Positions 9,568-32,964 of a stretch of 64,000 nt of DNA are shown here, in pieces. Within the stretch, counting starts at the first letter, position 1. Every line of letters starts with the position of its first letter. The stretch lies in the NCBI GenBank assembly GCA_964016885.1, contig OZ024756.1, positions 42,594,001 through 42,658,000 on the forward strand, given 5' to 3'. Both the position numbers and the translations under genes were made by a program. The stretch comes from Eledone cirrhosa (lineage: Eukaryota). Under the pieces are notes generated by a model that was given only the letters and a program-made list of their open reading frames with translations, did not search any database and was not told where the DNA came from.

Positions 9568-9701
9568 TCATTCATTTGGTGGTGGCTCAGCATTTATTGG
9601 TGGCTCAGCATTTATTGGTGGCTCAGCATTTATTGGTGACTCAACGTTTATTGGTGGCTCATCATTTATTGGTGGCCCAGCATTTATTGGTGGCACAGTA
9701 T
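9568..9701 (-). CDS. Ig-receptor copy 1, exon 5: cytoplasmic tail with (PPINAE)n repeat, ends at read-through stop
   Basis: Acceptor ttctag, phase 1. Reads DTVPPINAGPPINDEPPINVESPINAEPPINAEPPINAEPPPNE*. Same position and flanks as copy 2 exon 47443-47491, but the donor is GA|atgagt instead of GA|gtgagt. Confidence 0.8.
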
Positions 9702-9965
9702 CTAGAAGATTAGTGAAAGAAAATATTACAGGGAAAATAGTTCTAGGTGATATATAATAATGGTATCTAACATAGGCACAAGGCCAGAAATCTTAGGGGG
9801 AGAAAATTAATTATATTGATTATAGTACTTTACTGGTATTTTATTTTATTAACCCCAGAAGGATAAAAGGCAAAGCTGACTTCTGTAAAGGTCTAGAATA
9901 AATACTGTCAAGTTTTTGTTCAACATTGACAACTCTGCCAGTCCAATGTATTGTTACATATATAT

Positions 9966-10143
9966 AATTGTTTCTACTTTTGGCACAAGGCCATCAATTA
10001 CCCAGTGCATTACTGGTACTTTATTTTATCGACCCCGTAAGGATGAAAGGCAAAGTGAACCTCGGCGGGATTTGAACTCAGACCGTAAAGGGACGTAACT
10101 ATGCTGGAAAGCATGGCGTCCGACCCTCTACCGATACTGCCAA
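9966..10143 (-). mobile_element. tRNA-derived SINE with Nin/Deu-like core; absent from copy 2
   Basis: Minus strand has A box (tggcagtatcggtaga), B box (gagttcaaatccc) and core gcctttcatccttacggggtcgataaaataaagtaccag. The empty site is at about 47895. Confidence 0.88.
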
Positions 10144-10764
10144 TATACATAATGTCAAGCTATTGACAACATCATCATCACGACCATTTTATGTTTATTT
10201 TCCCTTCTTTCATGGTTTTAATGGGTTGTTATATTCTGAGGCTAGACAGGTAGGTCAGATAAATGTGTCTTGCTCATACTTTCCATTTTGGCAGGGTTTA
10301 TATCATTGGTTGCCTTTCCTAAAGCCAACCACTTCACAGCATGAATCAAGTTCATTTTCTCATGGCACCATCAATACCATCTGATAGGGCCAAATGGATG
10401 TTTAAGGGAAAGTTAACATAAAATGAGATAAATATAAGTTAAGGACTAAAAAAACTCCATAGAACTTAATAAATATTTATGCAGAAAACTGTATATATTT
10501 AAAAATTAGATATAACCACATTTGTTTAATTAGAAGCCTTGCTGTGAAAGTAATAAAGTGTCAACTAAAAAAGTTGACATCAGGAAGGGCATCTGGTGGT
10601 AAAACATTGTCACAAAACATCACATACAAACACTGATAGAGGGAAAAGTGAACATAAAAACGATGATGTACTTACACTTCCTTCTCTTCACAAGACTTCT
10701 AATTAAAAAACTGTAGTTATATTTACATTAAATCACTAAATATACTAAGTTGTATATCACTAAC

Positions 10765-10878
10765 CTTTTATATAACTTTTTTGGCGGAATACAAAGAACC
10801 AAATTAAAAGAATGACAAGTATGAGAAATACGATAATTCCAAGGATGATACCAGCAATTGTGTCAGGAGCTAATCCAG
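10765..10878 (-). CDS. Ig-receptor copy 1, exon 4: transmembrane segment
   Basis: gataacag|...|gttagt, 114 nt, phase 1-1. Reads PGLAPDTIAGIILGIIVFLILVILLIWFFVFRQKSYIK, a hydrophobic helix followed by basic stop-transfer residues. Confidence 0.9.
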
Positions 10879-10957
10879 CTGTTATCAAGATAGAAAACAA
10901 CAGCAATAAGTAATGTTTCTAATATTGCCACATGATTTCAAATTTGGTGGGAGGGTT

Positions 10958-13607
10958 CATCATCATCATCACCGTTTTACGTCCGTTCTTCCACGCTAGC
11001 ATGGGTTAGACGGGTTGTCCTGTTGTGGGCAGTGTCTGGTCGGCTGACCATGCCTTGCTCATACAGGAATTGATTTGGCTGGATTTCTACGGCTGGATGC
11101 CCTTCCTAACACCAACCTCATTTACAGTGAGTGCTGGGTGCTTTTTCGTGGCACCTACACGTCCACTTTACAGTGTGGGCTGGGTGCTTTTTTGCAGTGG
11201 CACCTCCACGACCACCTTGCTGTGGGGGGTGTGAGGGCATATTGTCTATATGCTTCAGCTTGTACCCATGAGAGGTCGGGTACTCTGTATTACTGTGTGT
11301 CGCCAGAGGTCACGGTCGTGTGTCATCGCCTTTGAGAGGTGTAATTGGGTAAGGTCGGCTTTTATCACCTCATCCCAGGTCATCTTGGGTCTCCCCACTC
11401 TGTGGTTTCCATCGACTTCTAGTGCTCTGCGCCTTTTTATGCAGCTGTCATCCTTCATACGCATCACATGTCCATACCAATGCAACCGCCTCTCCTGCAC
11501 ACAGCATTTGATTTCTCTTATGCTCAGTCTCTCTCTCAATTCATTTATGCTTTGTAGTTCGCGTATATTACTATTACACATCCATCGGAGCATGCAGGCT
11601 TCGTTTCTTTCTAATCTACGTAAGTCTTCCACCTTCAGCGCCCAGGTCTCACTACCATGCAACATCGCTGTTCGGATACACGCATCATACAGTCTGCCTT
11701 TCATTTTGAGGGAGAAGCTTTTGCAGCTAGCAGTGGTAGTAGTTCCCTAAACTTCTTCCATCCCGTTCTTACCCTAATTATTGTACTTTCTGAACACCCA
11801 CCTCCGCTGCTAATTCGGTCACCTAGGTAGCAGAAGCTGTCTACTGTTTCTACAGAGCCCTCCCAGAGATTGGTGGTACTTGTTTCCTGTGGCTATTTGC
11901 TGCTTGCTGTCCCAGCACAGCTGCTGCATGTGAAGCCTACATTCTTAATTAAGCTTCCTGAGATCCCGCTACATCTCTTGTGTACCAATTGTTTGCATTT
12001 GGAGCAGAGAATGGAGTTCCTACCTACACCTTTCCTACATACTGAGCAAGGCCATTTCCCTGAGGGGATCTGGGTTCTGTTTTCTCGTCTACTTACAAGG
12101 ACCTTAGTCTTTGTCATGTTGACTTTGAGACCCTTTCTTTCTAGTCCCTGTTTCCAAGTTTGGAATTTCTTCTCTAGTTCTACCATAGATTCAGCTATAA
12201 GTGCGAGGTCATCAGCATACAGGAGTTCCCATGGGCATCCGGTCTTAAACTCCTCCGTTATTGCCTGCAGGACTATGATGAACAGGAGGGGGCTAAGAAC
12301 AGAGCCTTGGTGGACCCCAACCTGTACACTAAATTCCTCGCTATACTCATTGCTACTCCTAACTTTGCTGACTGATCCCCTATACATGGCTTGTACCGCT
12401 TTCACAAGCCATTCATCTACTCCTAGTTTTCTAAGAGCCCACCAGATTACAGCACGTGGAACTCTGTCAAAGGCTTTCTCAAGATCGACAAATGTCAGGT
12501 AGAGTGGCTTACTTTTAGCTAGGTACTTTTCCTTTAACTGCCACACAAGGAAGAGGGCATCAGTGGTGCCTCTTCCTGGTACAAACCCAAATTGCATCTC
12601 ATCTAGTTTCACCCGGTCCCTAATCAACTGTGCTATAACTCTTTCTGTTACTTTCATGACCTGGTCCATCAGCTTTATACCTCTATAGTTTCCTCTATCT
12701 AGTGCATCACCTTTACCTTTGTAGCAGTTGACAATGATGCTACTGCACCAATCTTTTGGTATGACACCTAGTATTACCTGGTTAACAATACGTGTGGTTA
12801 TAGTGTGACCTACAGACCCAGATGCCTTCAGCATCTCAGCAGCTATACCCGATGGACCGGTTGCCTTCCCCATCTTCATATCTTTGATTGCCTTACTTAC
12901 TATGCTGCTGCTGACTTGTACTGCTGGCTCCTCTATAGGGTCTACTTGGGGTAGGGTCTCTTCTTCCCATGCATTCTCCTCATTTAGTAATCTATCATAA
13001 TGACTCTTCCATGCATCTTTCTTCTCAGCACTTGTGAGGGCAAGCTCACCTTTATCATTCCGGATACACTTCTCTCCAATGACATCACAATTCTCTCTGA
13101 CACACTGTCTCGCAATCTTGAACACCTCCTGTTTCTGGTCCTCACGTTGCAAAACATGCTTGAATTTTCTATCCTCCGCTTCCCTCCTAGCTAAGTATAC
13201 TTGTCGCCTAGCTTCCCTCTTGGTCTCTATGTAATGTACCCTGCTCCCCCCGTTCTTCCATTCTTTCCATGCCTGTCTCTTGGCCTTAACTGCCTCATCT
13301 ACCTTATTGTTCCACCACCAAGTCACTCTCCTCCTGCTTGTGGTCTTACTCCAGCCACAGACCTCATCCGTCGCCTCTAGTAAGTTATTTTTTAGGAACT
13401 CCCAGTTCTCTTCTACATTGAATGTCTCTATCTGTTCTTCTTTACTGTCGTAGGCGTTGAGTAAAATATCTTTAAATCTGTTACTGGTTGAGGAGTCTTT
13501 CAGCTTCCATATCTTTCTTCTCCAGGTTGGCCTCTGTTTCCAGGTTCGTCTAGTTCTGACTGTGAGGTCGCTGACAACTAAGCTATGTTGGGAGGTACAT
13601 TCCTCAT
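10958..13607 (-). mobile_element. RTE LINE family B, 5'-truncated intronic insertion specific to copy 1
   Basis: ORFs 11893-13326 (RT: NYRGI, QFGF..G, FVDLEKAFD, QGSVLSP, YADD) and 11255-11704, frameshifted, with a (cat)n tail. Empty site gggtt|atagttg at about 48705. Confidence 0.95.
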
Positions 13608-13639
13608 TATAGTTGATTATAGTTGGTTATAGTTGATTA

Positions 13640-14210
13640 TATGAACCCCAGTATTTCACTGGTATTTTATTTTATCAATCCCAGAAAGGTGAAAGACCAA
13701 GTTGTCCTCAACAGGATTGAAACTCAGAAAGTATAGAAGCAGGACAAATACCACAAAGCATTTTGAACAGTAGTAATAATAATTTCTAACATTTTAAATA
13801 ATTCTTTATACAAGGCCAACAATATAGAGGAAAAGGAAAGTCTATTTTCAACACCAATATTTATCTAGTACTTTATTTTATCAACCTCATAAGGATGAAA
13901 AGCAACATTAACCTCAGCGTGATTTGAACTCAGAACGTAAAGGGCCGTAACTTTATGCTGTGAAGCATGCTGTCTGACGCTCTGATAATAATAATAATAA
14001 TGATTTCTAGTATAGGCACAAGGCCAGTAATTTTTGGGGAGGGGAAAGTCGATTAAATCGACCCCAGTATGTTACTGGTACTTCATTTTATCAATCCCGT
14101 AAGGATGAAAGGCAAAGTTAACCTCGGCGCGATTTGAACTCAGATCATAAAGGGCTGTAACTCTTTGCTGCAAAGCATGGGGTCCGATCCTCTACCAATA
14201 TTGCCAATCC
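13640..14210 (-). mobile_element. Cluster of three Nin/Deu-core SINEs
   Basis: Repeated tactggtactttatttt..gatgaaaggcaaagttaacctc..gatttgaactcag blocks. Confidence 0.8.
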
Positions 14211-14214
14211 AAAA

Positions 14215-15085
14215 CAATGTCTATCATAATAGGTGCTCTAGGAATGATAAAACACAGACTTACAAATATATACAACATACAGAAGGTAGCTCTACTAGGT
14301 ACCGTATATATATTATATAGAGTACCACAGGACTTACAAAAATATACAGCATACAAAAGGTAGCTCTACTAGGTACCGTATATATATTATATAGAGTACC
14401 ACAGGACTTACAAATATATACAGCATACAAAAGGTAGCTCTACTAGGTACCGTATATATATTATATAGAGTACCACAGGACATACAAATATATACAGCAT
14501 ACAAAAGGTAGCACTACTAGGTACCGTATATATATTATATAGAGTACCACAGGACTTACAAATATATACAGCATACAAAAGGTAGCACTACTAGGTACCG
14601 TATATATATTATATAGAGTACCACAGGACTTACAAATATATACAGCATACAAAAGGTAACACTACTAGGTACCGTATATATATTATATAGAGTACCACAG
14701 GACTTACAAATATATACAGCATACAAAAGGTAGCACTACTAGGTACCGTATATATATTATATAGAGTACCACAGGACTTACAAATATATACAGCATACAA
14801 AAGGTAACACTACTAGGTACCGTATATATATTATATAGAGTACCACAGGACTTACACATATATACAGCATACAAAAGGTAGCACTACTAGGTACCGTATA
14901 TATATTATATAGAGTACCACAGGACTTACACATATATACAGCATACAAAAGGTAGCACTACTAGGCACTGCACACATATTACGAAAACTACTATCAATAC
15001 AATAGAAACCACACCACCAAAAACTACACGGGTCGAACCCAAGGCTCGGTAAAGCAGTAATAATGCGCAATAAAAATAATAATGG
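14215..15085 (+). mobile_element. 3' terminal fragment of an R4/Dong-like (REL endonuclease) retroelement containing a minisatellite
   Basis: Left flank encodes IIIGALGMI and right flank QKVALLGTAHILRKLLSIQ*, the typical C-terminus of this group, followed by a short UTR and aat repeats. Confidence 0.7.
14255..14966. repeat. 72-74 bp tandem minisatellite, about 9.5 near-identical copies
   Basis: Unit cacaggacttacaaatatatacagcatacaaaaggtagcactactaggtaccgtatatatattatatagagtac. Confidence 0.96.
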
Positions 15086-16790
15086 AAATAATAATATATA
15101 GGCACAAGTCCAGGAATTTTGGAGTAGGGGGTAAAATCGATTAATTCAACCCCAGTTCATTACTGGTACTTTATTCTATCAATCCCAGAAAGATGAAAGA
15201 CCAAGTACCTTTGTTACCATTATCTGTTCTAGTAAGAATGACTTCTAATTTAGACACACCATTGCAAGCAAGGAAAAGCGGACGTAAAATGATGATGATG
15301 ATGATGACACAAGATAAGCAATTTTTGCCAAGCAAAGTGTCGATTAAATCAACCCCAGTACATAACTGGTACTTTATTTTATCATCCTCAGAAGTATGAA
15401 AAGCAAAGTTAACTCTGGCAGGATTTGACATTTTGTATTACCTATTCAGTATTTCACCTATCTGTTGTAGGTCTGTAATAATTGAGCCAATTTCATTGAA
15501 CAGTGGCCTTATATGGTAGTGTACTGAAGCAAACTCTTTTGCAAATTTAAACAAAATTTTAAGGTTGGTTTTCATATTTTATATAACCCTGGCTTCTCTT
15601 TCTTCCATCTCCTTTCAAAGGGAATGTTTGAATTCAGTCTGAATTTCAAGTAGTACCCAGTTCAATTGTTGAGTGTGTTAGGTAAAGATCCCCTGAAGTC
15701 AGGAAAAAGGAACAGAGAACGATGACAATACTGTATCAGAGCTTATAATATAATTGTTTGGATCACCCAATGTAGCTGCTCTCTTTGAAAAGAACCATTT
15801 CCATTTATACAATAAATACTATAATATGTCTGTGAGAGAACTACTACATAGCTGCAACATAAGGTTATGTCATAGCCACCTCTATGACAGCATGGACCCT
15901 ATTTTAACAAATAAACACTGCACTGGGTAAGGAGGAAGCTTCTGTGGAATTGTTTAGTTGTAGATCATTCCTGATTAAGAACTGGGATTGATAGCATTTC
16001 TATGACTATATAAAATATGTTTTTCAACTGTCTGATTGTGACCATTTACTGAAAGGGTTGGATGTGATTTGAAGGAGATTTGGCTGCTGTTTCTAACAGG
16101 ACAAATCATCTGCAGCTTAATCCATCTTAAAACTTAGTCATATAAAAATAATATTAACAGCAAGCTACATAATAAACTATTAGGTATCTGTCGTCATATA
16201 AACTCTAGTTCATTCCAAACTAAAATGATAGTTATGGGTTTAACTACAGATCAACTGTGATGGGACAGACCGATGACTAAAGACATTCCAGTTGTGACCA
16301 TCCCATCATTTTCAGATTATTTAAAGAATTCTGTCTTCCTTGAAGAGAATATAGTTATTTAAGCAAGTTGTATGACCATGTAAATATTTCCTATTTGGTG
16401 GCAGTGGTAATAAAGGTGGTAGAGTGGTTACAATGATGATGATGATGAACATGGTTGTAGTGGCAGTCATAGTGATAGTAGTTAAACTGATCAAGATTGT
16501 GAAAGTATAAATCCAAACACAAACACAGCAGTACAGAAATATGTACACACTTAATCAAATATATGAATAATTATGTATTTCAAACATATACATATTTCAC
16601 ATGGAAACATACAATTATGCATATATACACACATGCATGTATATAAAAGCAGGTATGCTAGTATGGACACACACACACATATATAAATTTAAAAATATGG
16701 AATCTCACTCATGTATACATGCACACACATGCAGATATAGAATGATGCAGTGATTAATATGTATGTAGAAAGAAAAGTGATACTGCCTAC

Positions 16791-17099
16791 GTTCAGGTGA
16801 AATGAGGAGTTCCATTGTACTGTTAAATACTGTACAGGATATGGTTGTATTGCAGAGGTCTTCAGCTGTTATCAAGTAGTGAAATTCTGACTGTAACTCA
16901 GCATAACATTTGGTAGTTGTTGGAATGGTGATATAATGTTCACTAACACCTATCTGGTCATCATCACGTGTTAGACTCCATTGAAACAGGACTCTACTTC
17001 CAAAGTTTATGGCAACAATTGCACTACATAGGAAGCGAGATATCTGGTTAATTTTATGGACTTCAGTTAAACCCACCAGACTTTTCAGTTTAGATTTCA
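16791..17099 (-). CDS. Ig-receptor copy 1, exon 3: second Ig-like domain
   Basis: ttttcag|...|gtaggc, 309 nt, phase 1-1, open frame. Has the F-x-C-x-A, F-x-W and I-x-C-T Ig spacing. Homologous to 50349-50663. Confidence 0.88.
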
Positions 17100-17141
17100 C
17101 TGAAAAGAAAAGAAAAAAAACTGTAAATCTTAGGAACATAG

Positions 17142-17455
17142 ATAATTGTTTCTACTTTTGGCACAAGGCCAGCAATTATCCCGGGATTTGAACTCAGATA
17201 GTAAAGGGACATAACTATGCTGGAAATAAATAAGGGTTTCTTATATAGGCACAAGGCCAGCAATTTTTTTTGGTGGGAGGGGGGAGGGGGTCGATTAAAG
17301 GACCCGAGTGCATGACTGGTACTTTATTTTATTGACCCTGTAAGGATGAAAGGCAAAATTAACCTCAGCACGATTTGAACTCAGATTATAAAGGGCCGTA
17401 ACTCTATGTTGCAAAGCATTGTGTTTGACACTCTACCGATTCTGCCAAACCACCG
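17142..17455 (-). mobile_element. Two Nin/Deu-core SINEs (one partial)
   Basis: Same family motifs as 9966-10143. Confidence 0.8.
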
Positions 17456-17651
17456 CCCGAGGAAAATAAATAATGAAATAAAATGTTGGCTGGTTACATT
17501 AATACAAACTACAACTAAATTGGGTTGCTTCTGATAGGACACTCTGGAAGGCAGGGGTTGTAAATGGAAGGAAGGAAAAAGAAGAGACAAAATAGAAAAG
17601 AAAAAAGGGAGAAAATAAAAAGAACAAGAAAACGAAAAGATGAATATGTAC

Positions 17652-17684
<33 letters not shown>

Positions 17685-17687
<3 letters not shown>

Positions 17688-20400
17688 TCATCATCAACGT
17701 TTAACGTCCGTGTTCCACGCTTGCATGGGTTTGGACGGGGGTTTTCCCACTTGAGGCAAGAGTGATTGTCTTGCTCGCATAGGACTGTCTGGCAGGTTTT
17801 CTACAGTTGGATGCCCTTCCTAACACCAACCACATTTACAGTGTGGGTCTGGGAGGTTTTTACCGTGTTGCCTACACGGCCACATTACAGCGTGGACTGC
17901 ATGTTTTTTTGTCGTGACACCTACACGATCTCATTTGTTTCGGCCTGGATGGTGTGGCACCAACATAACTTTACATAGAAGGGGGCGGTATGGATGGGGT
18001 GGGGGTGGTGTATTTTGTTAGAGATGCCTACTGACTGTAGTAGGTTTTACTATGTATTTAGGTAAGGCGGGTCTTCTCTATTACTGAGTACTGCCAAAGG
18101 TCTCGGTCCAGTGACATTGTCTTGGAGAGGTGTAAGTGTGTGAGGTCGGAGTTTATCAGCTCGTCCCAGGTTTTTCTAGGTCTGCCTATTCCGTGGCTAC
18201 CGTCTATCTTTATTGCCCTGCACTTTGTTATACAGCTATCGACTTTCATGCGCATCACGTGTCCATACCAACGTAGCCTTCTCTCGAGTAAACAACATCT
18301 AATCCCTCTTATTTCTAATTTTTTCCTTAGTTCGTTTATGCTTTGCCGGTCACGTATATTACTATTACACATCCAGTGGAGCATGCAAGCTTCGTTCCTC
18401 TCTAGTCTGCGTATATCCTCTGCACACAATGCCCAGGTCTCACTGCCATGCAACATTGCTGTTCGTATGCAGGCATCATACAACCTGCCTTTCATTTTTA
18501 GGGAGAACCCTTTAGCGGCTAATAGTGGTATAAGCTCTCTGAACTTTTTCCATCCAGTTCTGACTCTAGCTACTGTACTTTCAGAGCACCCTCCCCCACT
18601 GCTGATTTTGTCACCCAGGTAACGGAAGCTGTCCATTATTTCTATAGAGCCCTCTGCGCAGTTGAAAGAGCTAGTATTTTGTGGGCACTTGCTGCTACTT
18701 ATTGCACCAGAGCACCAGCCACATGTGAAATCTATGTTCTTAGTTAGCTTACCTGTGATCCCACTACATCTTTTATGCACCCATACTTTGCATTTCTGAC
18801 ACAAAATGGAGTTTCTACCTACGCCTTTCCTACACACTGAGCATGGCCACTTCCCGGAAGGGACCGCCGCCTTATTTTCTTTCCTACAAACTAGAACTTT
18901 GGTCTTAGCCAGATTAATTTTAAGGCCTTTTGATTCTAGGCCGTGCTTCCATGTTTGGAATTTCTTCTCTAGCTCGGCCATTGATTCAGCTATGAGTGTT
19001 AGGTCGTCTGCGTATAGGAGTTCCCATGGGCAGCCGGTCTTGAACTCCTCTGTTATAGCCTGAAGGGCAATAATAAATAGTAGGGGGCTGAGAACAGAGC
19101 CCTGATGGACGCCAACTTTTACGCTAAACTCTTCACTATATTCGTTGTTAATTCTAACCTTGCTGACTGTTTCTTTATACATGGCTTGTATAGCTCTCAT
19201 TCGTCGACACCACCTAGTTTTCTAAGGGCCCACCAGATAATGGAACGGGGGACTCTGTCGAAGGCTTTCTCCAAGTCGACAAAAGCTAAGTAGAGGGGTT
19301 TACTTTTAGCTAGGTACTTCTCCTGTAGTTGTCGTACAATGAAAAGAGCGTCTGTGGTACTTTTGCCTGACACAAACCCGAACTGCATTTCATCTAGGTC
19401 AATTCTCTCTCTGATTAGTTGCGCTATTACTTTTTCCGTGACCTTCATGACCTGGTCGATTAATTTAATGCCTCTATAGTTACTCCTATCTAGGGCATCT
19501 CCTTTACCCTTATAACAGTTAACAATGATGCTGCTATGCCAGTCCTTTGGAACAACCCCATTCTGTACGACTTGGTTAACTATCCGGGTGACCATGGTGT
19601 GTCCCACCGTGCCAGATGCCTTCAGCATCTCAGCAACTATTTCCGAAGGCCCAGCCGCCTTACCCGTCTTCATATCCTTGATTGCCTTACTTATTATACT
19701 ACCCTCGACTAACACTGCTGGTCCCTCTATTGGGTCGATGTGGGGGAGACTGTCTTTCTCCCATTTATTCTCCTCATTTAGTAGCCTTTCATAGTGACAC
19801 TTCCAAGCTACCTTCTTATCAGTGTCGGTGATGGCAAGTATGCCGTCATCATTAAGTACACACTTCTCCCCGACAATATCACGGTTTTCCTTGACACATT
19901 GCCTAGCAATCCTGAACACCTCACGTTTTTGGTCCTCGCGTTGTAGAACATGCTTGAACTTTCTTTCCTCTGCTTCCCTTCTTGCGAAGTACACTTGTCT
20001 CCTAGCTTCCCTCCTGGCCACTTGATAGTCTTCTCTACTCCCCCCATACTTTCCAAGCCTGCTTTTTGGCCTTAATTGACCCCTCCACCTTACTGTTCCA
20101 CCACCATGTTACTCTCCTCCTGCCTACAGGCCTGCTCCAGCCACAGACTTCGTCTGCCGCCATCAGCAGGTTTGCTCTCAGGAATTCCCACTGTCCCTCT
20201 ATATTATACGACTCTAAATGTTCTTCCTTACTGTCGAAAGCATCAAGTAATATGCTTTGAAATTTATTTCTGGCTGTGGGGTCCTTTAGCTTCCATATTT
20301 TTCTCCTGAGGATAGTCCTCTTCTGTTGTCGAGTACGTCTCGTCCTGACTATGAGGTCGCTAATTATCAGTCTATGTTGGGAGGTGCATTCTTCATGGGG
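17685..20400 (-). mobile_element. RTE LINE family A, 5'-truncated, frameshifted
   Basis: ORFs 19197-20021 and 18058-19200 cover the full RT and C-terminus, with 3' UTR and (cat)n tail inside a (TA)n tract. Confidence 0.96.
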
Positions 20401-22697: not shown

Positions 22698-22796
<99 letters not shown>

Positions 22797-22836
22797 GATG
22801 ATATATATATATATATATATATATAGATATATATGA

Positions 22837-22882
<46 letters not shown>

Positions 22883-23055
22883 ATATATATATATATATAT
22901 GTCTATATTATGATATATATATATATATGTATATATGATGATATATATATATATATGTATATATGATGATATATATATATATATGTATATATGATGATAT
23001 ATATATATATATGTATATATGATGATATATATATATATATGTATAGATGATGATA
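22111..23055. repeat. Compound microsatellite (TA)n interrupted by GAT/GATGAT
   Basis: Direct reading of the sequence. Confidence 0.97.
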
Positions 23056-23481: not shown

Positions 23482-23723
23482 TATATATATATGATGATAT
23501 ATATATATATGATGATATATATATATATATATGATGATATATAGTAATAATAATAAAATTGAAGACTAAAATCCAGAGAGGGCTCGCCTCCGGTTGCAAC
23601 GTTTTTTGAAATATCCAGTTCTGCGTTTACAGATTGACTTTGTTAGTTTCAGAAGATCCCGTTAAGGGTGAAAGCAACGATTCTTTGCTTAAACTTTAAT
23701 CTGTTATTTTAATAAATATGATG

Positions 23724-23829
<106 letters not shown>

Positions 23830-23909
23830 TGCGGTGCCCCAGCATGGCCTCAGCCGGATGGCTGAAACAGGTAAAAGAGTATATATATATGTATGTATAT
23901 ATGTGATAT

Positions 23910-24242
23910 GGAGGCACATGGCTTAGTGGTTAGAGCATTGGCCTTGCAATCGAAAGGTTGTGAGTTCAATTCTCCGACCTAGTGATGTGTTGTTTCCTTG
24001 AGCAAGACACTTTATTTCACATTGCTCCAGTTTACTCAGCTGTAGAAATGAGATGATAGGGACCCAGTCACTGCAAAGTGGTCGTGGAGGTGCCACGCCA
24101 AAAAAAGCACCCAGCACTCAGTGTAAATGAGGTTGGTGTTAGGAAGGGCATCCAGCTGTAGAAATCAAGCCAGAATCAGTTCCCGTCCCACCCTTGCAAG
24201 CAGGGAAAAGCGGACGTAAAATAAAATGAAATGAAAATGAAA

Positions 24243-24245
<3 letters not shown>
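23910..24245 (+). mobile_element. Full-length tRNA-derived SINE with V/Meta-like core and RTE-derived tail
   Basis: A box tggcttagtggttaga, B box gagttcaattc, core gtttccttgagcaagacacttta, tail matching RTE 3' ends. Confidence 0.9.
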
Positions 24246-24280
<35 letters not shown>

Positions 24281-24306
24281 ATATATATATATATATTTAT
24301 AAATGA

Positions 24307-24345
<39 letters not shown>

Positions 24346-24589
24346 TATATGTATTATGTGTTATGTATGATGTCGACGTGACGGTCCAGGTTAGTCAAAT
24401 TTTTCCTGAGTTCAGTCCTTTTCGTGGCTATGGCCACTGCGGCCCTTCTATCAGTCGCTATCTTCATTTTGCAAAGCTGTCTAAACATAATGTTATAACT
24501 CTAGGGTTATATACCCTATTCGAGTGCTTAGCTGCACACCGAAACTGCATTCGTTAGCTTGGCTGCAACCATGGCTTCGTTGATGCTGT

Positions 24590-25715
24590 ACTAAATTTTG
24601 TATATATATTTAATGGAAGTACTCAAACTGAACGGATACACAACATCCACCACAAACCGTGCCAGAAAGAACAGAGGACACCACACCCGAGGCACTAACA
24701 CTTGCTTCCTGAAGCTCCAACACTTCAGTGACGAAACAACAACAGCCATCCGCAGAGCTATCAGACGAGAGGGACTAGATATCCAACTGGCCCACTCAAG
24801 ACCTTCTCTACGCAGACAGCTAACCAAAAGACACTCCACCAGACATGACAACCGCTGCAGGCTAGCCAACTGCCCCATCAACGACACAGACCTATGCCAC
24901 AAGGCTTACATCGTATACAGACTAGAGTGCGCCAATTGCAGCAACTTCTACGTAGGTAGCACCACCAGACCACTTCACATAAGAATAAAAGAACACTTCA
25001 ATACTAACGCTTCCTCATTTAAGAAACACCTAGTGAAATGCAAAAACACCGACAAAACCATAACAGTTAGGATAGAAACTAAGGACAGAAACCTCAGCAA
25101 TCTTAGAATTAAGGAAGCACTAATTATAGACAAAACACAACCACCAATCAATAATAGACTAGAACTCAACACCCAATTTATTACTTGATAGAGCATCTAG
25201 CCCCATACTTACACCCCAACACACACACGCACGCTTACACCTCCACTTATTCTCTCACACACACACACACACAAAGACCAGTTCTAGCACGAGAGAACAT
25301 GTATCCCCCACATTTACGTATAGACATATCTTCTCACTCACACACATACTTACACATTCACGCATTCTCCCACACACTTAAACAGACATGTACACAAAAA
25401 AAAAAAACCCTTTTAAAGGGAGACTACTCTTTATCCACCTAACCTTAACTCTTTGACATTAGAAATAGAACAGATACTCTATACCATTTCCTGTCAGCAT
25501 GACTTGGCAAGCTATTTAGAACACTGGTTTAACCACTTTACTTCCCTCCGAAGAAGAGATATTATCTCGAAAATTAAGGACATTTAAATAAATCTAAGGT
25601 AAAAGACTAATTGTCAACAATATCTTTTGCATTTGCATTTTTATTCTATGTCCATACCTGCATTGTTTGGCTTTACAAATTCAAACGTTTATACCTCATT
25701 ACACAATAACTTCCT
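24590..25715 (+). mobile_element. Penelope-like element, 3' fragment with GIY-YIG endonuclease and pseudo-LTR region
   Basis: ORF 24598-25188 has LxxNGY, a Cys linker, IVYRLEC..C..FYVGSTTRPLHIRIKEH and 'KEALII....P.IN'. Hammerhead-like motif at about 25548-25572. Confidence 0.9.
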
Positions 25716-25836
25716 CTTATATATATATATATGTGTATGATGATATATATATATATATGATGATATATATATATATGATGATATATATATGATATATATA
25801 AAGATATATATATATATATATATATGATATATATAA

Positions 25837-25887
<51 letters not shown>

Positions 25888-25944
25888 CGATGATATATAT
25901 ATAAGTATATATATGATGATATATATATATATGATGATATATAT

Positions 25945-26285
25945 GATCATCATCATCATCATTTTACGTCCGCTTTTCCCTGCTTGCAAGGGTGGGACAG
26001 GAACTGATTCTGGCTTGATTTCTACAGCTGGATGCCCTTCCTAACACCAACCTCATTTACAGTGAGTGCTGGGTGCTTTTTTGCTGTGGCACCTCAACGA
26101 CCACTTTGCAGTGGAATGATAGGGACCCCAGTCCCTATTATTTCATTTCTACAGCTGAGTAAACTGGAGCAATGTGAAATAAAGTGTCTTGATCAAGGAA
26201 ACAACACATCACCCGGTCTGAGAATTGAACTCACAACCTTTCGATTGCAAGGCCAATGCTCTAACCACTAAGCCATGTGCCTCCA
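25945..26285 (-). mobile_element. Full-length RTE-tailed SINE
   Basis: Reverse complement of 23910-24245. Confidence 0.9.
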
Positions 26286-26644
26286 TATATTTATTGGCTA
26301 GTAGTGGGTTCTCTTCTTGCTCACATCTCACTCACGTCGGACGGTCTGTATCTTGATCGCTCATGAAATCTACCCAGCTTATGCTGACCGGATAACCATG
26401 TTGCTTGTTTATTCCCATCTTTGCGTTGCTTTCATCCTTCTATGTTGTTTACTTGTCTCACTCGCTTTACGCGATTTACTGGTCCCAATAGCTTTTTTTA
26501 GTTATTGCTCGCACCAGCCTGAGGTATATGATTTTTAATGCGACGAAATATCAATGATGGTTGGCAAATCACTGACGAAGGACTAATTTTATCATATGTA
26601 ACCCATGTGCAACCACGCAGTATTCTTCTTTCTTCTCATGTGTT

Positions 26645-27150
26645 TTATATATATATATATATATATATGATGATATATATATATATATATATATGATATA
26701 TATATATATATATGATGATATATATATATATATATATATATATGATATATATATATATATATATATGATATATATATATATATATATGATATATATATAT
26801 ATATATATGATATATATATATATATGATATATATATATATATATATATATGATATATATATATATATATATATGATATATATATATATATATATGATATA
26901 TATATATATATATATGATATATATATATATATATATGATATATATATATATATGATATATATATATATATATATATATGATATATATATATATATATATG
27001 ATATATATATATATATATATGATATATATATATATATATATGATATATATATATGATATATATATATATATATATGATATATATATATATATATAGATGA
27101 TGATATATATATATATATATGATGATGATATATATATATATATATGATGA

Positions 27151-27217
<67 letters not shown>

Positions 27218-27220
27218 TGA

Positions 27221-27254
<34 letters not shown>

Positions 27255-27256
27255 GA

Positions 27257-27289
<33 letters not shown>

Positions 27290-27294
27290 TGATG

Positions 27295-27355
<61 letters not shown>
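26645..27355. repeat. Compound (TA)n/GAT microsatellite array
   Basis: Direct reading of the sequence. Confidence 0.97.
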
Positions 27356-27500
27356 ACGAAGGAAATGTGATAAGGAACCAGGTGGACCATAACGCACCAA
27401 AGTACTCAATACTTAGGATAGTAGAGTGGGTAATAGGAACGAGTAGGACCCCGACGGCTGAGCTCAAGCCGTTTCGACGGCTAGTTCTGGACCGAACTAA

Positions 27501-28994
27501 CCGCAAAAGTTTACAACACATTTTATATTTATCGCTTTTTTTCAAGAAAATTCTTAAATTTTAAGATTTAAAATTCACTAGAATGTTCTAGATTAGGTTT
27601 AAGGTAACTTCTAAGGACTATTAAACACATTATGTCATTATTTGTCTGACAACCATCCTGTAAACATTGACAACCATCCTGTAAACATTGACAACCGTCC
27701 TGTAAATATTGACAACCGTCCTGTAAGCATTGACAACCGTCCTGTAAACATTGACAATATGGGGAAAAATAAACTGATTGATCAAGACCTCCGTAAACGC
27801 ATTGTAGACCTTCATACAAATGGTGTTGGTTATAGAAAGATATCATGTCAGTTAAATGTGCCATTGAGTTCAGTTGGTACTATAATTCATCACTGGAAAT
27901 CTCATCATTCCATCTGTCCTCTAATTAGTTCTGGTCGTCCTAGAAAGATAACGGAACGTGCAGCTCGGTTATTGATGAGAAAGTTTGGCAACGAACCCCG
28001 GTGTACTCTTAAAAATCTTCAGGATGACCTAGAAGGAAGTGGAGTAAAAGTGAGCACAGATACAATTAGTCGTTCACTTCGTCGATATATCTTCTCGAGG
28101 TCTCCAAGGAAAACACCACTTCTTATGAGGAAACACGTTCTTCGTCGATTAAACTTTGCAAATGAGCATCTCATCAAATCTGCGTCATTTTGGTAAGGTG
28201 TATTTTGGTCAGACGAAACAAAAATTGAACTTTTTGGTCGAAATGCTGTGGCAAAAGTCTGGAGAAAGAAAGGTACTGAATATTCGCCGAAGAATACTAT
28301 TCCAACTGTAAAATTTGGAGGTGGATCAATCATGGTCTGGGGTTGCTTTAGTGCCACAGGTGTAGGAAATATTGAAATAATAGAAGGAAGAATGGGTGGC
28401 GCTTATTATAGAGGTATTTTGCAAAGGAATTTACATCAAAGTGCACATTCTCTCAGCTTAAAGTCAGGTTGTTTTTTTTCAACAAGATAACGATCCAAAG
28501 CATACTGCAAAGCTAACACAATCTTGGTTAAGTACGAATGGAATAAATATTCTAAAATGGCCAAGTCAGTCTCCAGATCTTAACCAGATCTTAAATTTGT
28601 GGAGCGAACTGAAACTCAAAATTCAAAAAACGGAACCCCAAAATATCCCTGAAATAAAGAAAATTTGTTGTGAAGAATGGAAAAATATTAGCCAAGAAAC
28701 ATGCAAGAAGTTTGTAGGAGGCTACTCCAAATGCCTACAGGCTGTAATTAGCAACAAAGGTTACGCTACAAAATATTAAGAGATGATTTAATAAATGTGT
28801 TGTAAACTTTTGCGTTATAAAAATATTGATTTTTCTTCATGAGTTATTTCCTTGTTATTTTTTTAAAAATATGATTGTATCATTAAATACCTCATTATAT
28901 GTTCTATCAGTAGTTAAATTTTCATTACCCTAACTTTATTAAAAAATACCTAAAACTGCATTTTTCCTAATGTGTTGTAAACTTTTGCGGGGCA

Positions 28995-28997
<3 letters not shown>
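27501..28997 (+). mobile_element. Tc1-family DNA transposon with disrupted transposase (27759-28779)
   Basis: HTH region (GYRKIS..LNVP), GRPRK, WSDETK, VKFGGGSIMVWGCF, QQDNDPKH, WPSQSPDLN and GYATKY*, with stop and frameshifts. TIR ccgcaaaagtttacaacaca at 27501 and inverted at 28971-28997 ending cactg|TA. Inner repeat at about 28797. Confidence 0.95.
27645..27757. repeat. 21-bp tandem repeat, about 5 copies, in the Tc1 5' leader
   Basis: Unit tgacaacc(a/g)tcctgtaaacat. Confidence 0.92.
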
Positions 28998-29032
<35 letters not shown>

Positions 29033-29222
29033 GTATATGTATATACATATGTATATGTATATATATATATATATATATATAATGATGGTTGGAAAATCAC
29101 TGACGAAGGACTATTTTTATCATATGTAACCCATGTGCAACCACGCAGTATTCTTCTCTCTTCTCATGTTTTTTTATATATATATATGTATATATGATGA
29201 TGATATATATATATAATTTTAT

Positions 29223-29818
29223 TTTCTGGACCGCTTAGATGCTTGGAAAGTACTTTTTTCCTCTGGATTAGGGTTAGGTTTAGGGGTAGGGTAGGGGTTG
29301 GGTTTAGTGTTAGATTTAGATTCCACCCTTTAATTTTCAAACCAGCCAAAACCGGCCAGAATTCTCTACCTTTTTCTTTTGAAACTGGCGGTAATTAGTC
29401 ACTCAAACTGATGTTAAGGTATTGTTCTCAAAATAAATACTTTCAAAATCTCATAGATTGGATATTATGTGAGATAATTATGTAAGGTAAAGCATTTACC
29501 ATGAAGATATAATAGTGTATATAGAGTAATGTGAATGCTAAAGGGTTAATTTTAGGGTTATGTTTAGGATTAGGGTTAATTTAAGGGATAGGTTTAGGAT
29601 TAGGGTTAGTTTAAGGGCTAGGTTTAGGGTTATTTTTCTGGCTAGGTATAGGATTAGTTTCAGGGCTAGTTTTAGGGTTAGGTTCAGGGCTAGTTTTAGG
29701 GTTAGGTTTAGAGCTAAGTTTAGGGTTAGTTTTCGGGCTAGGTTTAGGATTAAAGTTAGATTTAGGGTTACCGTTTTCTGGGAAAAAGTCAATTGCAAGC
29801 ATCTTAGAGGCTCAGAAA
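29223..29818. mobile_element. MITE-like element with imperfect TIRs of about 38 bp and degenerate TTAGGG-like arrays
   Basis: Left tttctggaccgcttagatgcttggaaagtacttttttcc versus reverse complement of right tttctgagcctctaagatgcttgcaattgactttttcc. (gggtta/ggttta)n at 29265-29320 and 29540-29770. Confidence 0.65.
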
Positions 29819-30139
29819 AAAAAACAAGGGAAGATAATTGTTTCCCATAAAATGCAAGAGGTGTGTAGATCTGTGAAACTCCAATGATTATTTCGTCCCC
29901 TTTTACTCTACTTTATTTTACAAATCTAGTCATTTCTGACTGCTTTGGGGTCCTGTTCATTGATGTCATGAAAAAATAAAAATAAAAATAAAATGGAGAG
30001 AAAACATCTGAGGAAAAAAATTGATTGCTAGAATCTAGGAGGTTAGATTAGTTGATAGAACACAGAAAGAAAAAAATGAAAATAATTTTTTCCTCCACTG
30101 AAATCGAGTGAGGGTGTTCTATAAATTTACCAAACTTAC

Positions 30140-30481
30140 CTCTTACAGTCTGTGAAGGTAAGGATTTAGTTTTATTTACTTCACATTGAAAACTTTTTAA
30201 ATCATTGCAATTAGGGTTATTTTTCCAGCACTGATAAAAAAACACAGGCAGTTTATCAAGTTTCAGAACTGCACAGTCAAAATTTTCAACTGTTTCTTTC
30301 ACAAATATTTTGAGAATAACGTTAAATTTCATATTTGCAACCTCGGCTCCATTACCTAGGACTTTCATGATTGTTATGTAATCCAATGAAACGTTTACCT
30401 TACATGTTATATTTATTCTAGATGTTGATCCGATAACAATTTCAGCAGGTGATACAGAGGAGTTGACTGATAAAATGTCAT
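30140..30481 (-). CDS. Ig-receptor copy 1, exon 2: first (V-like) Ig domain
   Basis: ccatactttag|...G|gtaagt, 342 nt, phase 1-1, open frame. Reads DDILSVNSSVSPAEIVIGSTSRINITCKVNVSLDYITI...QCWKNNPNCNDLKSFQCEVNKTKSLPSQTVR, with the I-x-C and C-x-D-x-x-x-F-x-C Ig motifs. Confidence 0.85.
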
Positions 30482-30579
30482 CTAAAGTATGGAAGAGGAG
30501 GAAATTATTAGATAAAGATTAATACAAAAATAACATATATAATGGCAGGTAGAGAAAAATTAAGACAAAGAAGAAACAA

Positions 30580-30700
30580 TAATAATTGTTTCTACTCTTG
30601 GCACAAGGCCAGCAATTATCCCAGTGTATTTCTGGTACTTTATTTTATCGACCCTGTAAGGATGAAAGGCAAAGTTAACCTCGGCGGGATTTGAACTCAA
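30580..30700 (-). mobile_element. Partial Nin/Deu-core SINE
   Basis: Family motifs as at 9966-10143. Confidence 0.8.
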
Positions 30701-30992
30701 GAAGAGAAAATACAGTTGTGAATGATAAAATGAGGAGAGAAAGAAAACTGAAGAAGAAAAAGAAAAAAAGACACAGAAAAGAAAGTAGACCAAAAAAACA
30801 AACATGAGGAAAAACAAAATTTAAAAAAAATCAACTAAAACAAAAAAAAAAAACAAGCACACTGAATGTCGCATCGTAAAGTTCAACATACGGTATTTGT
30901 TCAAAAGATGTTTCATTCGGTTTCCTTTTTCAAACGGTAAGATGTTTTCAGAAGTCTTTTAGCTCAAAAACTAGAGCACTCATCAAGTTCAC

Positions 30993-32110
30993 TATTGTGT
31001 CGTCTGCTGGGCACAAAGGAAGCTAGGCATAGATGAATGGTTACTGACGGCTATGCAGGCCATATACAGAGGTGAAAACAACAAGGTGGCAGTTGGCAAT
31101 GAGTACAGTGATGAATTAGAAGTGCTTGTAGAAATCCACCAAGGTTTAGTCATCAGTCCAGTCCTGTTTATCATTCTCATTCAGTCCTTATCTGGAGAGT
31201 TTAAGACTGGCATTCCATGGGAACTCCTGTATGTTGATGATCTAGTCCTTATATCTGAATCTACGGGAGAGTTATTGGCAAAATTCAAAGCATGGAAGAA
31301 AAACCTAGAATTGAAAGGCCTAAAAGTAAATTTAGCAAAGACAAAAGTCTGAAGTAGAAAGGAAGGCTAGAAGCTGTTACCATCAGGAAATTGGCCTTGT
31401 TCAATGTGTAAAAAGAGGGTGGACAGAAACTCGATAAGTTACATAGTGTTCCCTATGGACACACAAGAAAAGTAATGGGATTGTAGGTAGGCTAACAGAG
31501 AAGATAGATTTTATGTAGTAGAGGTGTAGGAGGAGTAAGAACTAAGAAAACACGTGAAGTAGATTCACTCAATTGCTACGGCTTTCAGGTTGTTGACAGA
31601 TTTTGTTATCTAGATAACCTAATCAGCAGTAGGTGAGGATGCTCTGAAAGAATGGTGGCCTGGATAAGAACAGGCTGGAAGAAGTTTAGAGAATAACTAC
31701 CTAAGCTGACAACAAAGGGCTTCTCTCTCAGAATGAAGGGTAGACTGTATGATGCCTGCGTGCGTACTGCAATGCTACATGGCAATGAAACATGGGCCCT
31801 GACTGCAGAAGGCCTACAAAGGCTAAAACTAAATGAAACAAGTATGCTCCGATGGATGTGTAATGTCAGTGTGCATGTGTGAAGTAGCATGAACGAGCTA
31901 AGAGAAAAACTTGGTTTTAAGATGAATTGGATGTAGAGTGTATAAGAGAAGACTGTATTGGTATGAACATGTGATGTCTATGGAAGGTAACAACAGAGAA
32001 TCTATTGGAAGAGGTAGATCTAAGGAAACATGGCAGGAAGTAGTGAAGACTGACCTTCAAAAGCCAGGACTGAAGGGAGTAGCCATATGCTGTACTGAAG
32101 ACCTTCCTAA
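30993..32110 (+). mobile_element. Degenerate RTE RT/C-terminal fragment
   Basis: ORF 31053-31352 (HQGLVISP..PWELLYVDD) and downstream 'RRLYWYEHV', with many stops. Confidence 0.88.
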
Positions 32111-32514
32111 TACTTTTTGATGTTGTGTCAGGTTTCTATGAAAGTATGTTGATACACACAGACACAAACTGACATTAATAACACACTATATTCTTAAATT
32201 CAGATATTATTTACATGACGAAACCCGACTCTAGTTAAAGGAAATAGTTAACCGATTTTATCAATATTTTAAAATACAGTTTTCAATGACACAATAGCAT
32301 TACTACTATTGATCTCAAACAGGTATTAATATACAAAGTTAGAAGACTAACAAGGGACGGAGCTGTAACTGATGAAAGCTGAACCATGTATATTTGGCTG
32401 GTAGGGCTAATGTCTTACCTGGGCATATATTGAAGGGGAGAGATGGGGAGGAGAGGGGCGAGAGATGAGGAGGAGAGAGAGGGAGAGAGGAAAATAAAAG
32501 GGGGGAAACAGAGT

Positions 32515-32730
32515 AATAATCGTTTCTGATTAAGGAACAAAGCCAGCAATTTTAGGGGTGAGGAAAATTTAATTAAATCGACCACAGGGCGTGACTGATA
32601 CTTTATTTTATCGACCCTGTAAGGAGGAAAGGCAAAGCTAACCACGGCTGGATTTGAACTGAGAATGTAAAGGGTTGTAACTCTATGTCGCGAAGTAGGG
32701 TGCCCGTCACTCTACCGATTATTGCTACTC
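32515..32730 (-). mobile_element. Nin/Deu-core SINE
   Basis: Family motifs as at 9966-10143. Confidence 0.75.
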
Positions 32731-32843
32731 CACTACCTGCGTGTAAGAGAGGAGGAAAGTGTATATAACAGAGAGAGGTGGAGTGTGTAAAAGACAGAGA
32801 GAGCAACATGGGGAAAATTAAATTGTCTTTTGTCTTAACTTAC

Positions 32844-32964
32844 CGCCTGAAGTGGAACGAGCCATCATCATCATCACCATAACTATTACCATAGTCCTCA
32901 ACAGGTTGGGCAGAAATAAGCGCCGACTGCCCCCATCAACAGTTGTAATAAAACAGCAAGACAT
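32844..32964 (-). CDS. Ig-receptor copy 1, exon 1: start codon and signal peptide
   Basis: aagtATG...TCA GGC G|gtaagt, phase 1, compatible with exon 2. Reads MSCCFITTVDGGSRRLFLPNLLRTMVIVMVMMMMARSTSG, a hydrophobic stretch ending in small residues (T-S-G). Confidence 0.72.

What the first reader, a model, noticed from the sequence alone, without database searches (positions are those of the whole stretch)
9568..32964. Cryptic complete five-exon gene for a two-Ig-domain type I membrane protein buried in transposons
Seen: exons 32844-32964, 30140-30481, 16791-17099, 10765-10878 and 9568-9701 join in phase 1 at GT-AG sites without internal stops, giving about 339 aa (signal peptide, Ig1, Ig2, TM, tail). 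Ig1 lacks the usual C-strand Trp and has extra cysteines, including a C-x-D-x3-F-x-C motif. Both Ig2 copies keep an extra 'CY' cysteine that might pair with Ig1. Established: one domain per phase-1 exon is typical of IgSF genes, and Trp-less Ig domains occur in molluscan FREP-type proteins. Inference: a lineage-specific receptor family for self/non-self, immune or neural recognition, architecturally analogous to Hydractinia Alr genes. I cannot assign a gene name.
Basis: partly seen in the sequence, partly recalled or inferred. Interest (0 to 1): 0.8.

Follow-up and report, generated by a model that had tools for sequence, protein, structure and literature searches.

The report
Fast-evolving octopod immunoglobulin receptor gene cluster
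This is an intact gene in a tandem cluster of about a dozen unnamed octopod genes predicted to encode antibody-fold surface proteins whose binding domains diversify much faster than the introns around them, so it likely makes a non-signalling relative of an inhibitory receptor that recognises something fast-changing, most likely microbes or parasites.

Summary
The five exons are real: AG/GT ends, phase 1 throughout, 339 codons without a stop. The same exons recur in 12-13 paralogs over 1.25 Mb and in annotated but uncharacterised Octopus and Argonauta proteins. Domain 1 models as a V-set Ig fold, domain 2 as a C-type Ig fold. No spliced RNA was available. One correction: the family has further tail exons. 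This copy has lost the exon-5 donor, so its tail stops early, without signalling motifs. The cluster's conserved founder (ortholog of LOC115221679) carries an ITIM plus a second tyrosine motif. Ig exons show positive selection (M2a vs M1a p about 1e-8 to 1e-16, own code), in domain 1 mainly at CDR-equivalent loops. Introns and the signal exon stay 93-100% identical between paralogs whose adjacent exons are about 70% identical, which points to gene conversion that spares the exons. A 24-bp satellite found only here fills V-C introns with about 765 kb. Best reading: a CEACAM-like system, one inhibitory receptor plus diversified non-signalling relatives, reached independently in octopods. It is not an Alr, FREP or CEACAM member. 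Ligand, tissue and function are untested.

The parts
32844..32964 (-). Exon 1, start codon and likely signal peptide
   Evidence: 12 copies in the cluster at 92-100% nucleotide identity; 11 of 11 complete copies end in phase 1; similar N-termini in annotated Octopus proteins; SignalP not run
30140..30481 (-). Exon 2, domain 1: V-set Ig fold without C-strand Trp, five invariant Cys, positively selected loops
   Evidence: pLDDT 73.5; best Z 11.0, rmsd 2.5, 96 aligned, VHH/TCR V domains
16791..17099 (-). Exon 3, domain 2: C-type (C1/C2-set-like) Ig fold with a third invariant Cys
   Evidence: pLDDT 91.7; SIRP-gamma D2 Z 10.3, VCAM-1 D2 Z 10.2; bacterial Ig-like domains score as high
10765..10878 (-). 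Exon 4, transmembrane helix
   Evidence: hydropathy peak 3.5 at residue 265
9568..9701 (-). Exon 5, short tail of 18-bp Pro-Pro-Ile-Asn repeats; ancestral donor lost, so the frame stops here; no ITIM
4388..4691 (-). Remnant of the ancestral exon 6 and shared 3' sequence; non-coding in this copy
15115..16790 (-). Intron tract mostly 98-100% identical to the neighbour gene's intron, next to an exon that is only 70% identical (inferred conversion tract)
9059..9567 (-). Intron-5 tract, 99.2-99.6% identical among five paralogs
50349..50663 (-). Neighbour paralog, domain 2 exon (its exons 1 and 2 lie at G000:C17:42669568 and 42667728, outside the window)
48513..48626 (-). Neighbour paralog, transmembrane exon
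47443..47491 (-). Neighbour paralog, exon 5 with intact GTGAGT donor
46479..46632 (-). Neighbour paralog, exon 6: acidic tail ending T-V-V (class I PDZ-binding type, motif recalled)

Best explanation
The gene encodes a predicted V-set plus C-type Ig membrane protein that is a tail-truncated, likely non-signalling paralog of a conserved ITIM-bearing octopod receptor, in a cluster whose binding domains are likely driven apart by fast-changing foreign ligands such as microbes or parasites. Shown: exon structure, cluster, founder tail motifs, excess of amino-acid change, near-identical introns beside divergent exons. Inferred: the founder signals inhibition through SHP-type phosphatases when domain 1 is engaged; duplicates took new domain-1 surfaces and lost or replaced the tail (short tails here, GPI-like ends in Octopus), so they would bind without inhibiting, as decoys, adhesion molecules or modulators. 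Paralogs exchange sequence by gene conversion, and selection removes tracts that would overwrite the Ig, TM or tail exons.
For: Fold. Cluster: all matches of four Ig-exon queries in the 3-Gb genome lie on C17 42.56-43.70 Mb. Founder: the plus-strand gene at 43.664-43.798 Mb matches LOC115221679 of O. sinensis, O. vulgaris and Argonauta exon by exon, keeps L-H-Y-A-E-L and a second Tyr 25 residues on, and ends S-x-V; database isoforms exist with and without the ITIM exon. Selection: pN>pS in 118 of 120 D1 pairs and 102 of 105 D2 pairs (pairs are not independent); M2a vs M1a 2dL 69-74 for D1 and 51 for D2, and 39 and 37 in the ten closest, easily aligned copies; most D1 sites fall in the BC loop, C'-C'' region and FG loop. 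Founder D1 is 62% identical between O. sinensis and O. vulgaris, D2 98%. Conversion. Independent expansion: this genome's 16 D1 form one clade with its own founder (SH-aLRT 99, quick tree). Analogy: CEACAM clusters (abstracts of PMC5112662, PMC13278318).
Against: No RNA evidence for this copy, no tissue data, no ligand. In CEACAM pairs conversion keeps the decoy's V domain like the inhibitory receptor's; here this gene's D1 is only 47% identical to the founder's and conversion spares the exons, so it is not a simple decoy for the founder's ligand. No ITAM-bearing or charged-TM activating partner was seen among 13 TM exons and the tails read. Domain 2 is also under positive selection, which a D1-only binding model does not predict. 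Recombination can inflate the codon tests, whole-exon omega for all D1 is not above 1 (1.19, p 0.2), and the close D2 set shows no purifying class. At least 3 of 13 gene units are broken and 8 of 13 TM-like exons are frameshifted or damaged. ITIM-like hexamers also occur in neural adhesion molecules (own knowledge).
Confidence: 0.5

Rival explanations
1. The family is a self or cell-identity code: each paralog (or allele) binds its own kind or a sibling across cells, as Hydractinia Alr proteins or nectins do, for allorecognition, arm self-recognition or neural wiring.
For: V-C architecture and PDZ-type C-termini are typical of homophilic adhesion molecules (own knowledge); D2 resembles D2 of Necl-4, SYG and Rst; Alr genes are also clustered, divergent Ig genes with ITIMs (PMC9546547, abstract and passages); selection that resists exon homogenisation fits distinct identities.
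Against: Wiring codes tend to be conserved between close species (own knowledge), whereas the founder D1 differs by 38% between two close Octopus species and the expansions are lineage-specific. Allelic polymorphism could not be measured from one assembly.
Confidence: 0.22
2. The proteins act in reproduction (gamete, spermatophore or oviduct recognition), and sexual selection or conflict drives their divergence.
For: Positive selection, fast between-species change and GPI-type anchors are common in gamete-recognition proteins (own knowledge).
Against: An ITIM-bearing founder with alternatively spliced tails fits regulatory signalling better; no expression data point to gonads.
Confidence: 0.13
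3. This copy, and much of the cluster, is a decaying or relaxed duplicate: the frame is intact by recent descent and the high omega reflects lost constraint plus recombination artefacts.
For: Lost exon-5 donor and shifted exon-6 acceptor; long D1 branch; several broken siblings; no purifying class in the close D2 set; no RNA seen.
Against: Both Ig exons are about 30% or more diverged from siblings at nucleotide level yet have no stop or frameshift and keep all eight invariant Cys and all splice sites; neutral decay cannot give exons 70% identical beside introns 98-100% identical, nor site classes with omega 4-7.
Confidence: 0.15

Closest known systems
Uncharacterised octopod proteins of the LOC115221679 family (O. 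sinensis XP_029647744-type isoforms, Argonauta GAB1601880.1; paralogs such as O. bimaculoides LOC106878948/52, O. sinensis LOC118766833)
   Same: True homologs: same signal peptide style, D1 with the C-x-K-x4-C-x-D motif (63 of 64 domains), D2, and one cluster-bearing chromosome per species.
   Different: Unnamed and unstudied. Several Octopus paralogs end in GPI-like signals, whereas this genome's expansion is separate and uses TM plus short tails; this copy has a Pro-rich repeat tail.
Vertebrate CEACAM cluster (CEACAM1 with ITIM/ITSM plus decoy, GPI-anchored and secreted paralogs)
   Same: Works-like analog: V plus C Ig domains, one inhibitory founder, lineage-specific expansion, diversifying selection, gene conversion (abstracts of PMC5112662 and PMC13278318; GPI and secreted forms recalled).
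   Different: No sequence homology found; D1 keeps the B-F cysteines and has three more; conversion here homogenises introns and the signal exon rather than the V exon; no ITAM partner found.
Hydractinia Alr family
   Same: Single cluster of divergent, Pfam-silent IgSF type I proteins, some with ITIMs, with an inter-domain disulfide from an EF-loop Cys (PMC9546547, passages).
   Different: Alr D1 lacks the B and F Cys, D2/D3 are I-set, and an FnIII-like domain precedes the TM; none of this holds here.
B7/CD80, SIRP, nectin-like and CTX-type V-C receptors
   Same: V-set then C1/C2-set_2 domain, TM, Tyr motifs, PDZ-type end.
   Different: Fold-level likeness only (5-15% identity); no family profile matched above cut-off.
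Biomphalaria FREPs/VIgLs and polymorphic transmembrane clusters PTC1/PTC2
   Same: Molluscan, clustered, highly diverse candidate recognition genes (PMC10875847, passages).
   Different: No fibrinogen or lectin domain; no gastropod among the 29 named hits of the 30 looked up out of 36.

Membership tests
IgSF V-set (domain 1) | V topology with C' and C'' strands | tested here: met
   Model has A', B, C, C', C'', D, E, F strands; top 50 VIA rows are V-type domains, Z 9.5-11.0; 16 Foldseek hits at E<=0.001, nanobodies and CD28. pLDDT only 73.5.
IgSF V-set (domain 1) | B- and F-strand cysteines | tested here: met
   C26 and C99 invariant in 16 of 16, in strands E21-29 and E97-101; the bond itself was not measured.
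IgSF V-set (domain 1) | C-strand tryptophan | tested here: not met
   Absent in 16 of 16; the only invariant Trp is in the E strand. Many accepted Ig domains lack it (PMC9546547, passage).
IgSF C-type (domain 2) | Seven-strand sandwich with B/F Cys and C-strand Trp | tested here: met
   pLDDT 91.7; C24, W40, C88 invariant; Atlas nearest clusters C1-set/C2-set_2 at 0.92-0.93; VIA Z about 10 to SIRP-gamma, VCAM-1 and ICAM-2 D2, tied with bacterial Ig-like domains.
LOC115221679 octopod family | Sequence homology over D1 and shared exon order | tested here: met
   36 hits at E<=0.001 among 1.84 billion representatives; 30 looked up, 29 named, all octopod; founder exons located here.
Hydractinia Alr | Domain 1 lacks the B and F cysteines | tested here: not met
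   Feature from PMC9546547; both Cys present here.
Hydractinia Alr | FnIII-like domain between Ig domains and TM | tested here: not met
   D2 joins the TM directly or through a 14-residue stalk.
Hydractinia Alr | Allele-specific homophilic binding | not testable with these tools
   Needs binding assays.
CEACAM | N domain without the B-F disulfide (recalled) | tested here: not met
   Both Cys invariant.
CEACAM | Sequence homology to CEACAM proteins | tested here: inconclusive
   No CEACAM among the 60 of 68 listed PDB hits of the family profile; best were Fc-gamma receptors and light chains at E about 0.004.
CEACAM-like system (works like) | ITIM-bearing founder plus tail-less relatives in one cluster | tested here: met
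   founder; relatives. The motif is a consensus match only.
CEACAM-like system (works like) | Decoy V domains kept similar to the founder's | tested here: inconclusive
   Nine D1 exons are 69-85% identical to the founder's; this gene's is 47%.
CEACAM-like system (works like) | Binding by pathogen adhesins | not testable with these tools
   No ligand data.
FREP/VIgL | C-terminal fibrinogen or lectin domain, secreted | tested here: not met
   TM and short tail instead; no such Pfam domain above cut-off in 15 family members.

The most novel reading that the evidence does not exclude
The cluster is an octopod variable-receptor locus: a locus-specific 24-bp satellite, sitting between V and C exons like an immunoglobulin switch region, drives recombination that couples different V exons to different C, anchor and tail exons, in the germline or even somatically, around an ITIM-bearing founder. 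Not excluded: all 6134 genome-wide exact matches lie in this cluster, all 7 arrays are in V-C introns, genes with one, two and three V-C units alternate, and D1 and D2 trees disagree (weakly supported). The plainer reading is one intronic repeat inherited by a subgroup and amplified passively.
Probability: 0.06. Interest if true: 0.92.

Novelty: new variant of a known kind. Interest (0 to 1): 0.58.

Why it matters
The searches run here found no description of a diversified recognition-receptor family or an ITIM receptor in cephalopods. This family gives a concrete candidate: a conserved founder with a clear signalling hypothesis, separate expansions in different octopods, and a short list of selected surface sites to test. 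It would be an independent arrival at the CEACAM/SIRP design in a mollusc. The locus is also an unusually sharp case of conversion opposed by selection (introns 98-100% alike next to exons 70% alike), and of a satellite confined to one intron class that inflates introns to 0.1-0.5 Mb. The gene in the finding is one ordinary member; the interest lies in the cluster.

Tried and rejected
RNA evidence: no RNA holder listed; the three runs found behave as genomic DNA (their contig reads through the introns), so they say nothing on splicing. Word-index homolog searches with D1 and with the D2 alignment found nothing; only the full HMMER scan did, so those blanks were sensitivity limits. The third word-index search scored 7993 candidates and returned 4 proteins, all octopod: squid, cuttlefish or nautilus relatives are not excluded. 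Pfam gave no domain hit on single exons. A W-x5-C-x7-C likeness of D1 to IFNAR1 (E 3.3) was rejected: the fold is V-set. A candidate founder tail exon at 43720675 was rejected as antisense LINE. A Thr/Pro-rich mucin-like frame downstream of the damaged TM exons lies after a stop in all three phases and was taken as 3' repeat. A missed stalk exon in this gene was sought: the founder has one, this gene and its neighbour do not. The satellite holds no tRNA (5 stretches) or Rfam family (3 stretches). The scan of flanking DNA for neighbouring genes timed out, so synteny is unknown. The careful D1 tree did not finish; the quick tree is quoted. Papers: ten searches found no description of this family; six LOC identifiers gave 0 papers; cephalopod + ITIM + immunoglobulin + receptor gave 0. 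The readable supplements of two octopus single-cell papers held none of six identifiers, but the large data archive of PMC9712504 could not be read and may hold expression data.
Full report
Observation. The five exons lie on the minus strand at the stated places, with AG acceptors, GT donors and phase 1 at all four introns; they give 339 codons and a stop. The protein has a hydrophobic N-terminal stretch, one strong transmembrane segment at residue 265, six N-glycosylation sequons and a tail with a single juxtamembrane Tyr. The introns carry reverse-transcriptase, Tc1/mariner and GIY-YIG elements. The window is G000:C17:42594001-42658000 of a 3.0-Gb genome; its homologs place it among octopods.

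Folds. Domain 1 (alignment of 16 paralog exons) models at pLDDT 73.5 with A', B, C, C', C'', D, E and F strands. Foldseek and VIA-align return nanobody, TCR, CD8, CD28 and nectin V domains (best Z 11.0, rmsd 2.5, 96 aligned). Domain 2 models at pLDDT 91.7 as a seven-strand sandwich. VIA-align lists SIRP-gamma, VCAM-1 and ICAM-2 second domains at Z 9.6-10.3, tied with bacterial Ig-like domains; Foldseek had no hit at E<=0.001. The Atlas puts D1 near unnamed molluscan and V-set clusters and D2 near C1/C2-set_2 clusters. Pfam finds neither. D1 has five invariant Cys and D2 three. B-F pairs account for two in each, the D- and E-strand Cys of D1 could pair, and the EF-loop Cys of D1 and the Cys at the start of D2's E strand are left over at facing ends. 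An inter-domain bond is inferred, not modelled.

Cluster. Four Ig-exon queries against the whole genome match only C17 42.56-43.70 Mb: 17 D1-like and 17 D2-like exons. The signal exon has 12 copies there at 92-100% identity, plus one weak 45-base match elsewhere. Reading 1.256 Mb of contiguous sequence gives 12 genes with a signal exon and one headless unit beside an assembly gap. Units have one, two or three D1-D2 pairs. One D1 and two D2 exons are broken. Of 13 TM-like exons, 5 keep the ancestral frame; the rest are frameshifted or damaged and would give short-tailed, GPI-like or secreted products (inference).

Correction to the gene model. In 4 of 4 other genes that have exon 5, it ends at a GTGAGT donor in phase 2 and a sixth coding exon follows. 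The neighbour in the window gains an acidic tail ending T-V-V. In the finding's gene the donor reads ATGAGT and the frame stops; the old exon 6 survives at about 4388-4691 with a shifted acceptor. So five coding exons is right for this copy, but as a truncation. The founder also has a 42-base stalk exon that this gene lacks.

Homologs and founder. A D1 profile against 1.84 billion representatives gave 36 hits. Thirty were looked up; 29 carry names, all uncharacterised or generic Ig-domain proteins of O. vulgaris, O. bimaculoides, O. sinensis or Argonauta, mostly on one chromosome per species. Their gene models independently show the same signal peptide style, D1 and D2, and several end in a GPI-like hydrophobic signal (hydropathy only). 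One gene is conserved in all: LOC115221679, with TM and long tail. Its ortholog here is the plus-strand gene at 43.664-43.798 Mb, whose tail exons were located (62% and 54% identity). It keeps L-H-Y-A-E-L, a consensus ITIM, with a second Tyr motif 25 residues later, and ends S-x-V. That such spacing suits tandem-SH2 phosphatases is recalled. Database isoforms lack or include the ITIM exon. This genome's 16 intact D1 domains group with its own founder, apart from Octopus paralogs (SH-aLRT 99, quick tree of 64 domains): separate expansions, or concerted evolution within each lineage.

Evolution. pN exceeds pS in 118 of 120 D1 pairs and 102 of 105 D2 pairs. My own codon-model code gives M2a over M1a with 2dL 69-74 for D1 (omega about 4.3 on a fifth of sites) and 51 for D2; in the ten closest copies 39 and 37, with whole-exon omega 1.74 and 2.91. 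Against this, whole-exon omega for all D1 is 1.19 (p 0.2), the close D2 set has no purifying class, and recombination can inflate such tests. D1 sites concentrate at residues 28-34, 46-63 and 100-105, the CDR1-, CDR2- and CDR3-equivalent regions, with single sites at 15, 74 and 96. Founder orthologs of O. sinensis and O. vulgaris are 62% identical in D1 and 98% in D2. Between this gene and its neighbour the D2 exon is 70% identical, while most of the next 1.3 kb of intron is 98-100% identical; the TM exon is 72% with flanks at 97-98%. Across all 10 pairs of the five full-TM genes, TM exons are 61-85% and exon 5 54-88% identical, with downstream introns at 93-99%. Synonymous divergence of the D2 pair is 0.31, so fast substitution after a recent duplication cannot explain it; conversion of introns with selection against conversion of exons can (inference).

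Satellite. A 24-bp repeat forms seven arrays of 0.2, 493, 12, 115, 34, 108 and 4 kb, each between a D1 exon and the next D2 exon. All 6134 exact genome-wide matches of a 36-base probe are in this cluster. The arrays start a few hundred bases into the same intron and grade out of a TG-rich microsatellite, so a single origin in one subgroup is the simple reading. The finding's gene has no array. The largest array contains an assembly gap, and another gap sits at the head-to-head junction with the founder, so array sizes and orientation need checking.

Mechanism. Most likely (0.5): an inhibitory V-C receptor whose outer face is targeted by, or recognises, fast-changing foreign ligands, surrounded by duplicates that keep the ectodomain design, diversify it and drop the signalling tail; this gene would be one such non-signalling binder. 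Rivals: a self or cell-identity code (0.22), relaxed or dying duplicates (0.15), reproductive recognition (0.13). No expression, ligand or binding evidence was obtained; the three sequencing runs found were genomic.

Comparison. It is a member of the IgSF and of the unnamed LOC115221679 family. It is not an Alr (PMC9546547, abstract and passages), FREP (PMC10875847 and PMC11999971, passages) or CEACAM. It works most like a CEACAM cluster (abstracts of PMC5112662 and PMC13278318), but differs in that conversion spares the V exon and no ITAM partner was found. Passages of PMC13428168, PMC11703226 and PMC13193013 did not mention the family. Ten literature searches found no description (listed under Tried and rejected); subscription journals are not covered.

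Verdict. Real gene, uncharacterised family, new variant of a known kind; interest 0.58.

Noticed in passing
G000:C17:42734347-43557810: About 765 kb of a locus-specific 24-bp satellite in seven arrays, all in D1-D2 introns; would make introns of about 109, 118 and 496 kb if the genes are transcribed through them.
   Followed up: partly
G000:C17:43646853-43658574 versus 43677839-43709596: Inverted duplicate of the founder's D1, D2 (96% identical) and stalk exon (99%), head to head with the founder across a 200-N assembly gap that cuts the founder's first exon; the inverted unit has no first exon.
   Followed up: partly
G000:C17:43764577-43764895: If the donor after the founder's ITIM exon is read through, the second Tyr motif becomes T-L-Y-A-E-V, an ITSM-type consensus (recalled), followed by a stop six codons later: a possible alternative C-terminus.
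   Followed up: no
L004 and L007 (G000:C17:43425200 and 43258842): Two D1 exons carry the same in-frame internal duplication near their start (366 instead of 327 bases).
   Followed up: partly
P0001, P0002, P0038 (O. vulgaris models): Multi-repeat family members with up to five D1 copies and Thr-rich linkers; may be fused gene models.
   Followed up: no
window 27615-28779 (+): Tc1/mariner transposase with a Sleeping Beauty-type HTH, interrupted by stops, in intron 2.
   Followed up: partly
window 51202-52383 (-): PIF1-like helicase fragment, likely from a Helitron.
   Followed up: partly
window 24595-25188 and 60871-63243 (+): GIY-YIG and reverse-transcriptase frames of Penelope-like elements (class name inferred).
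   Followed up: partly
window 14253-14981: Tandem array with a 74-bp period at 90-97% identity in intron 3.
   Followed up: no
window 2204-2967, 5543-6309 and 58402-58749: Long near-perfect inverted repeats (87%, 96% and 99% self-complementary).
   Followed up: no
G000:C17:42542948-42543800 (+): 283-codon open frame with an N-x-C-F-x-N-S-V-V-Q-x-L stretch resembling a ubiquitin-protease Cys box (recalled), inside an intron of the last paralog; possibly transposon-borne.
   Followed up: no
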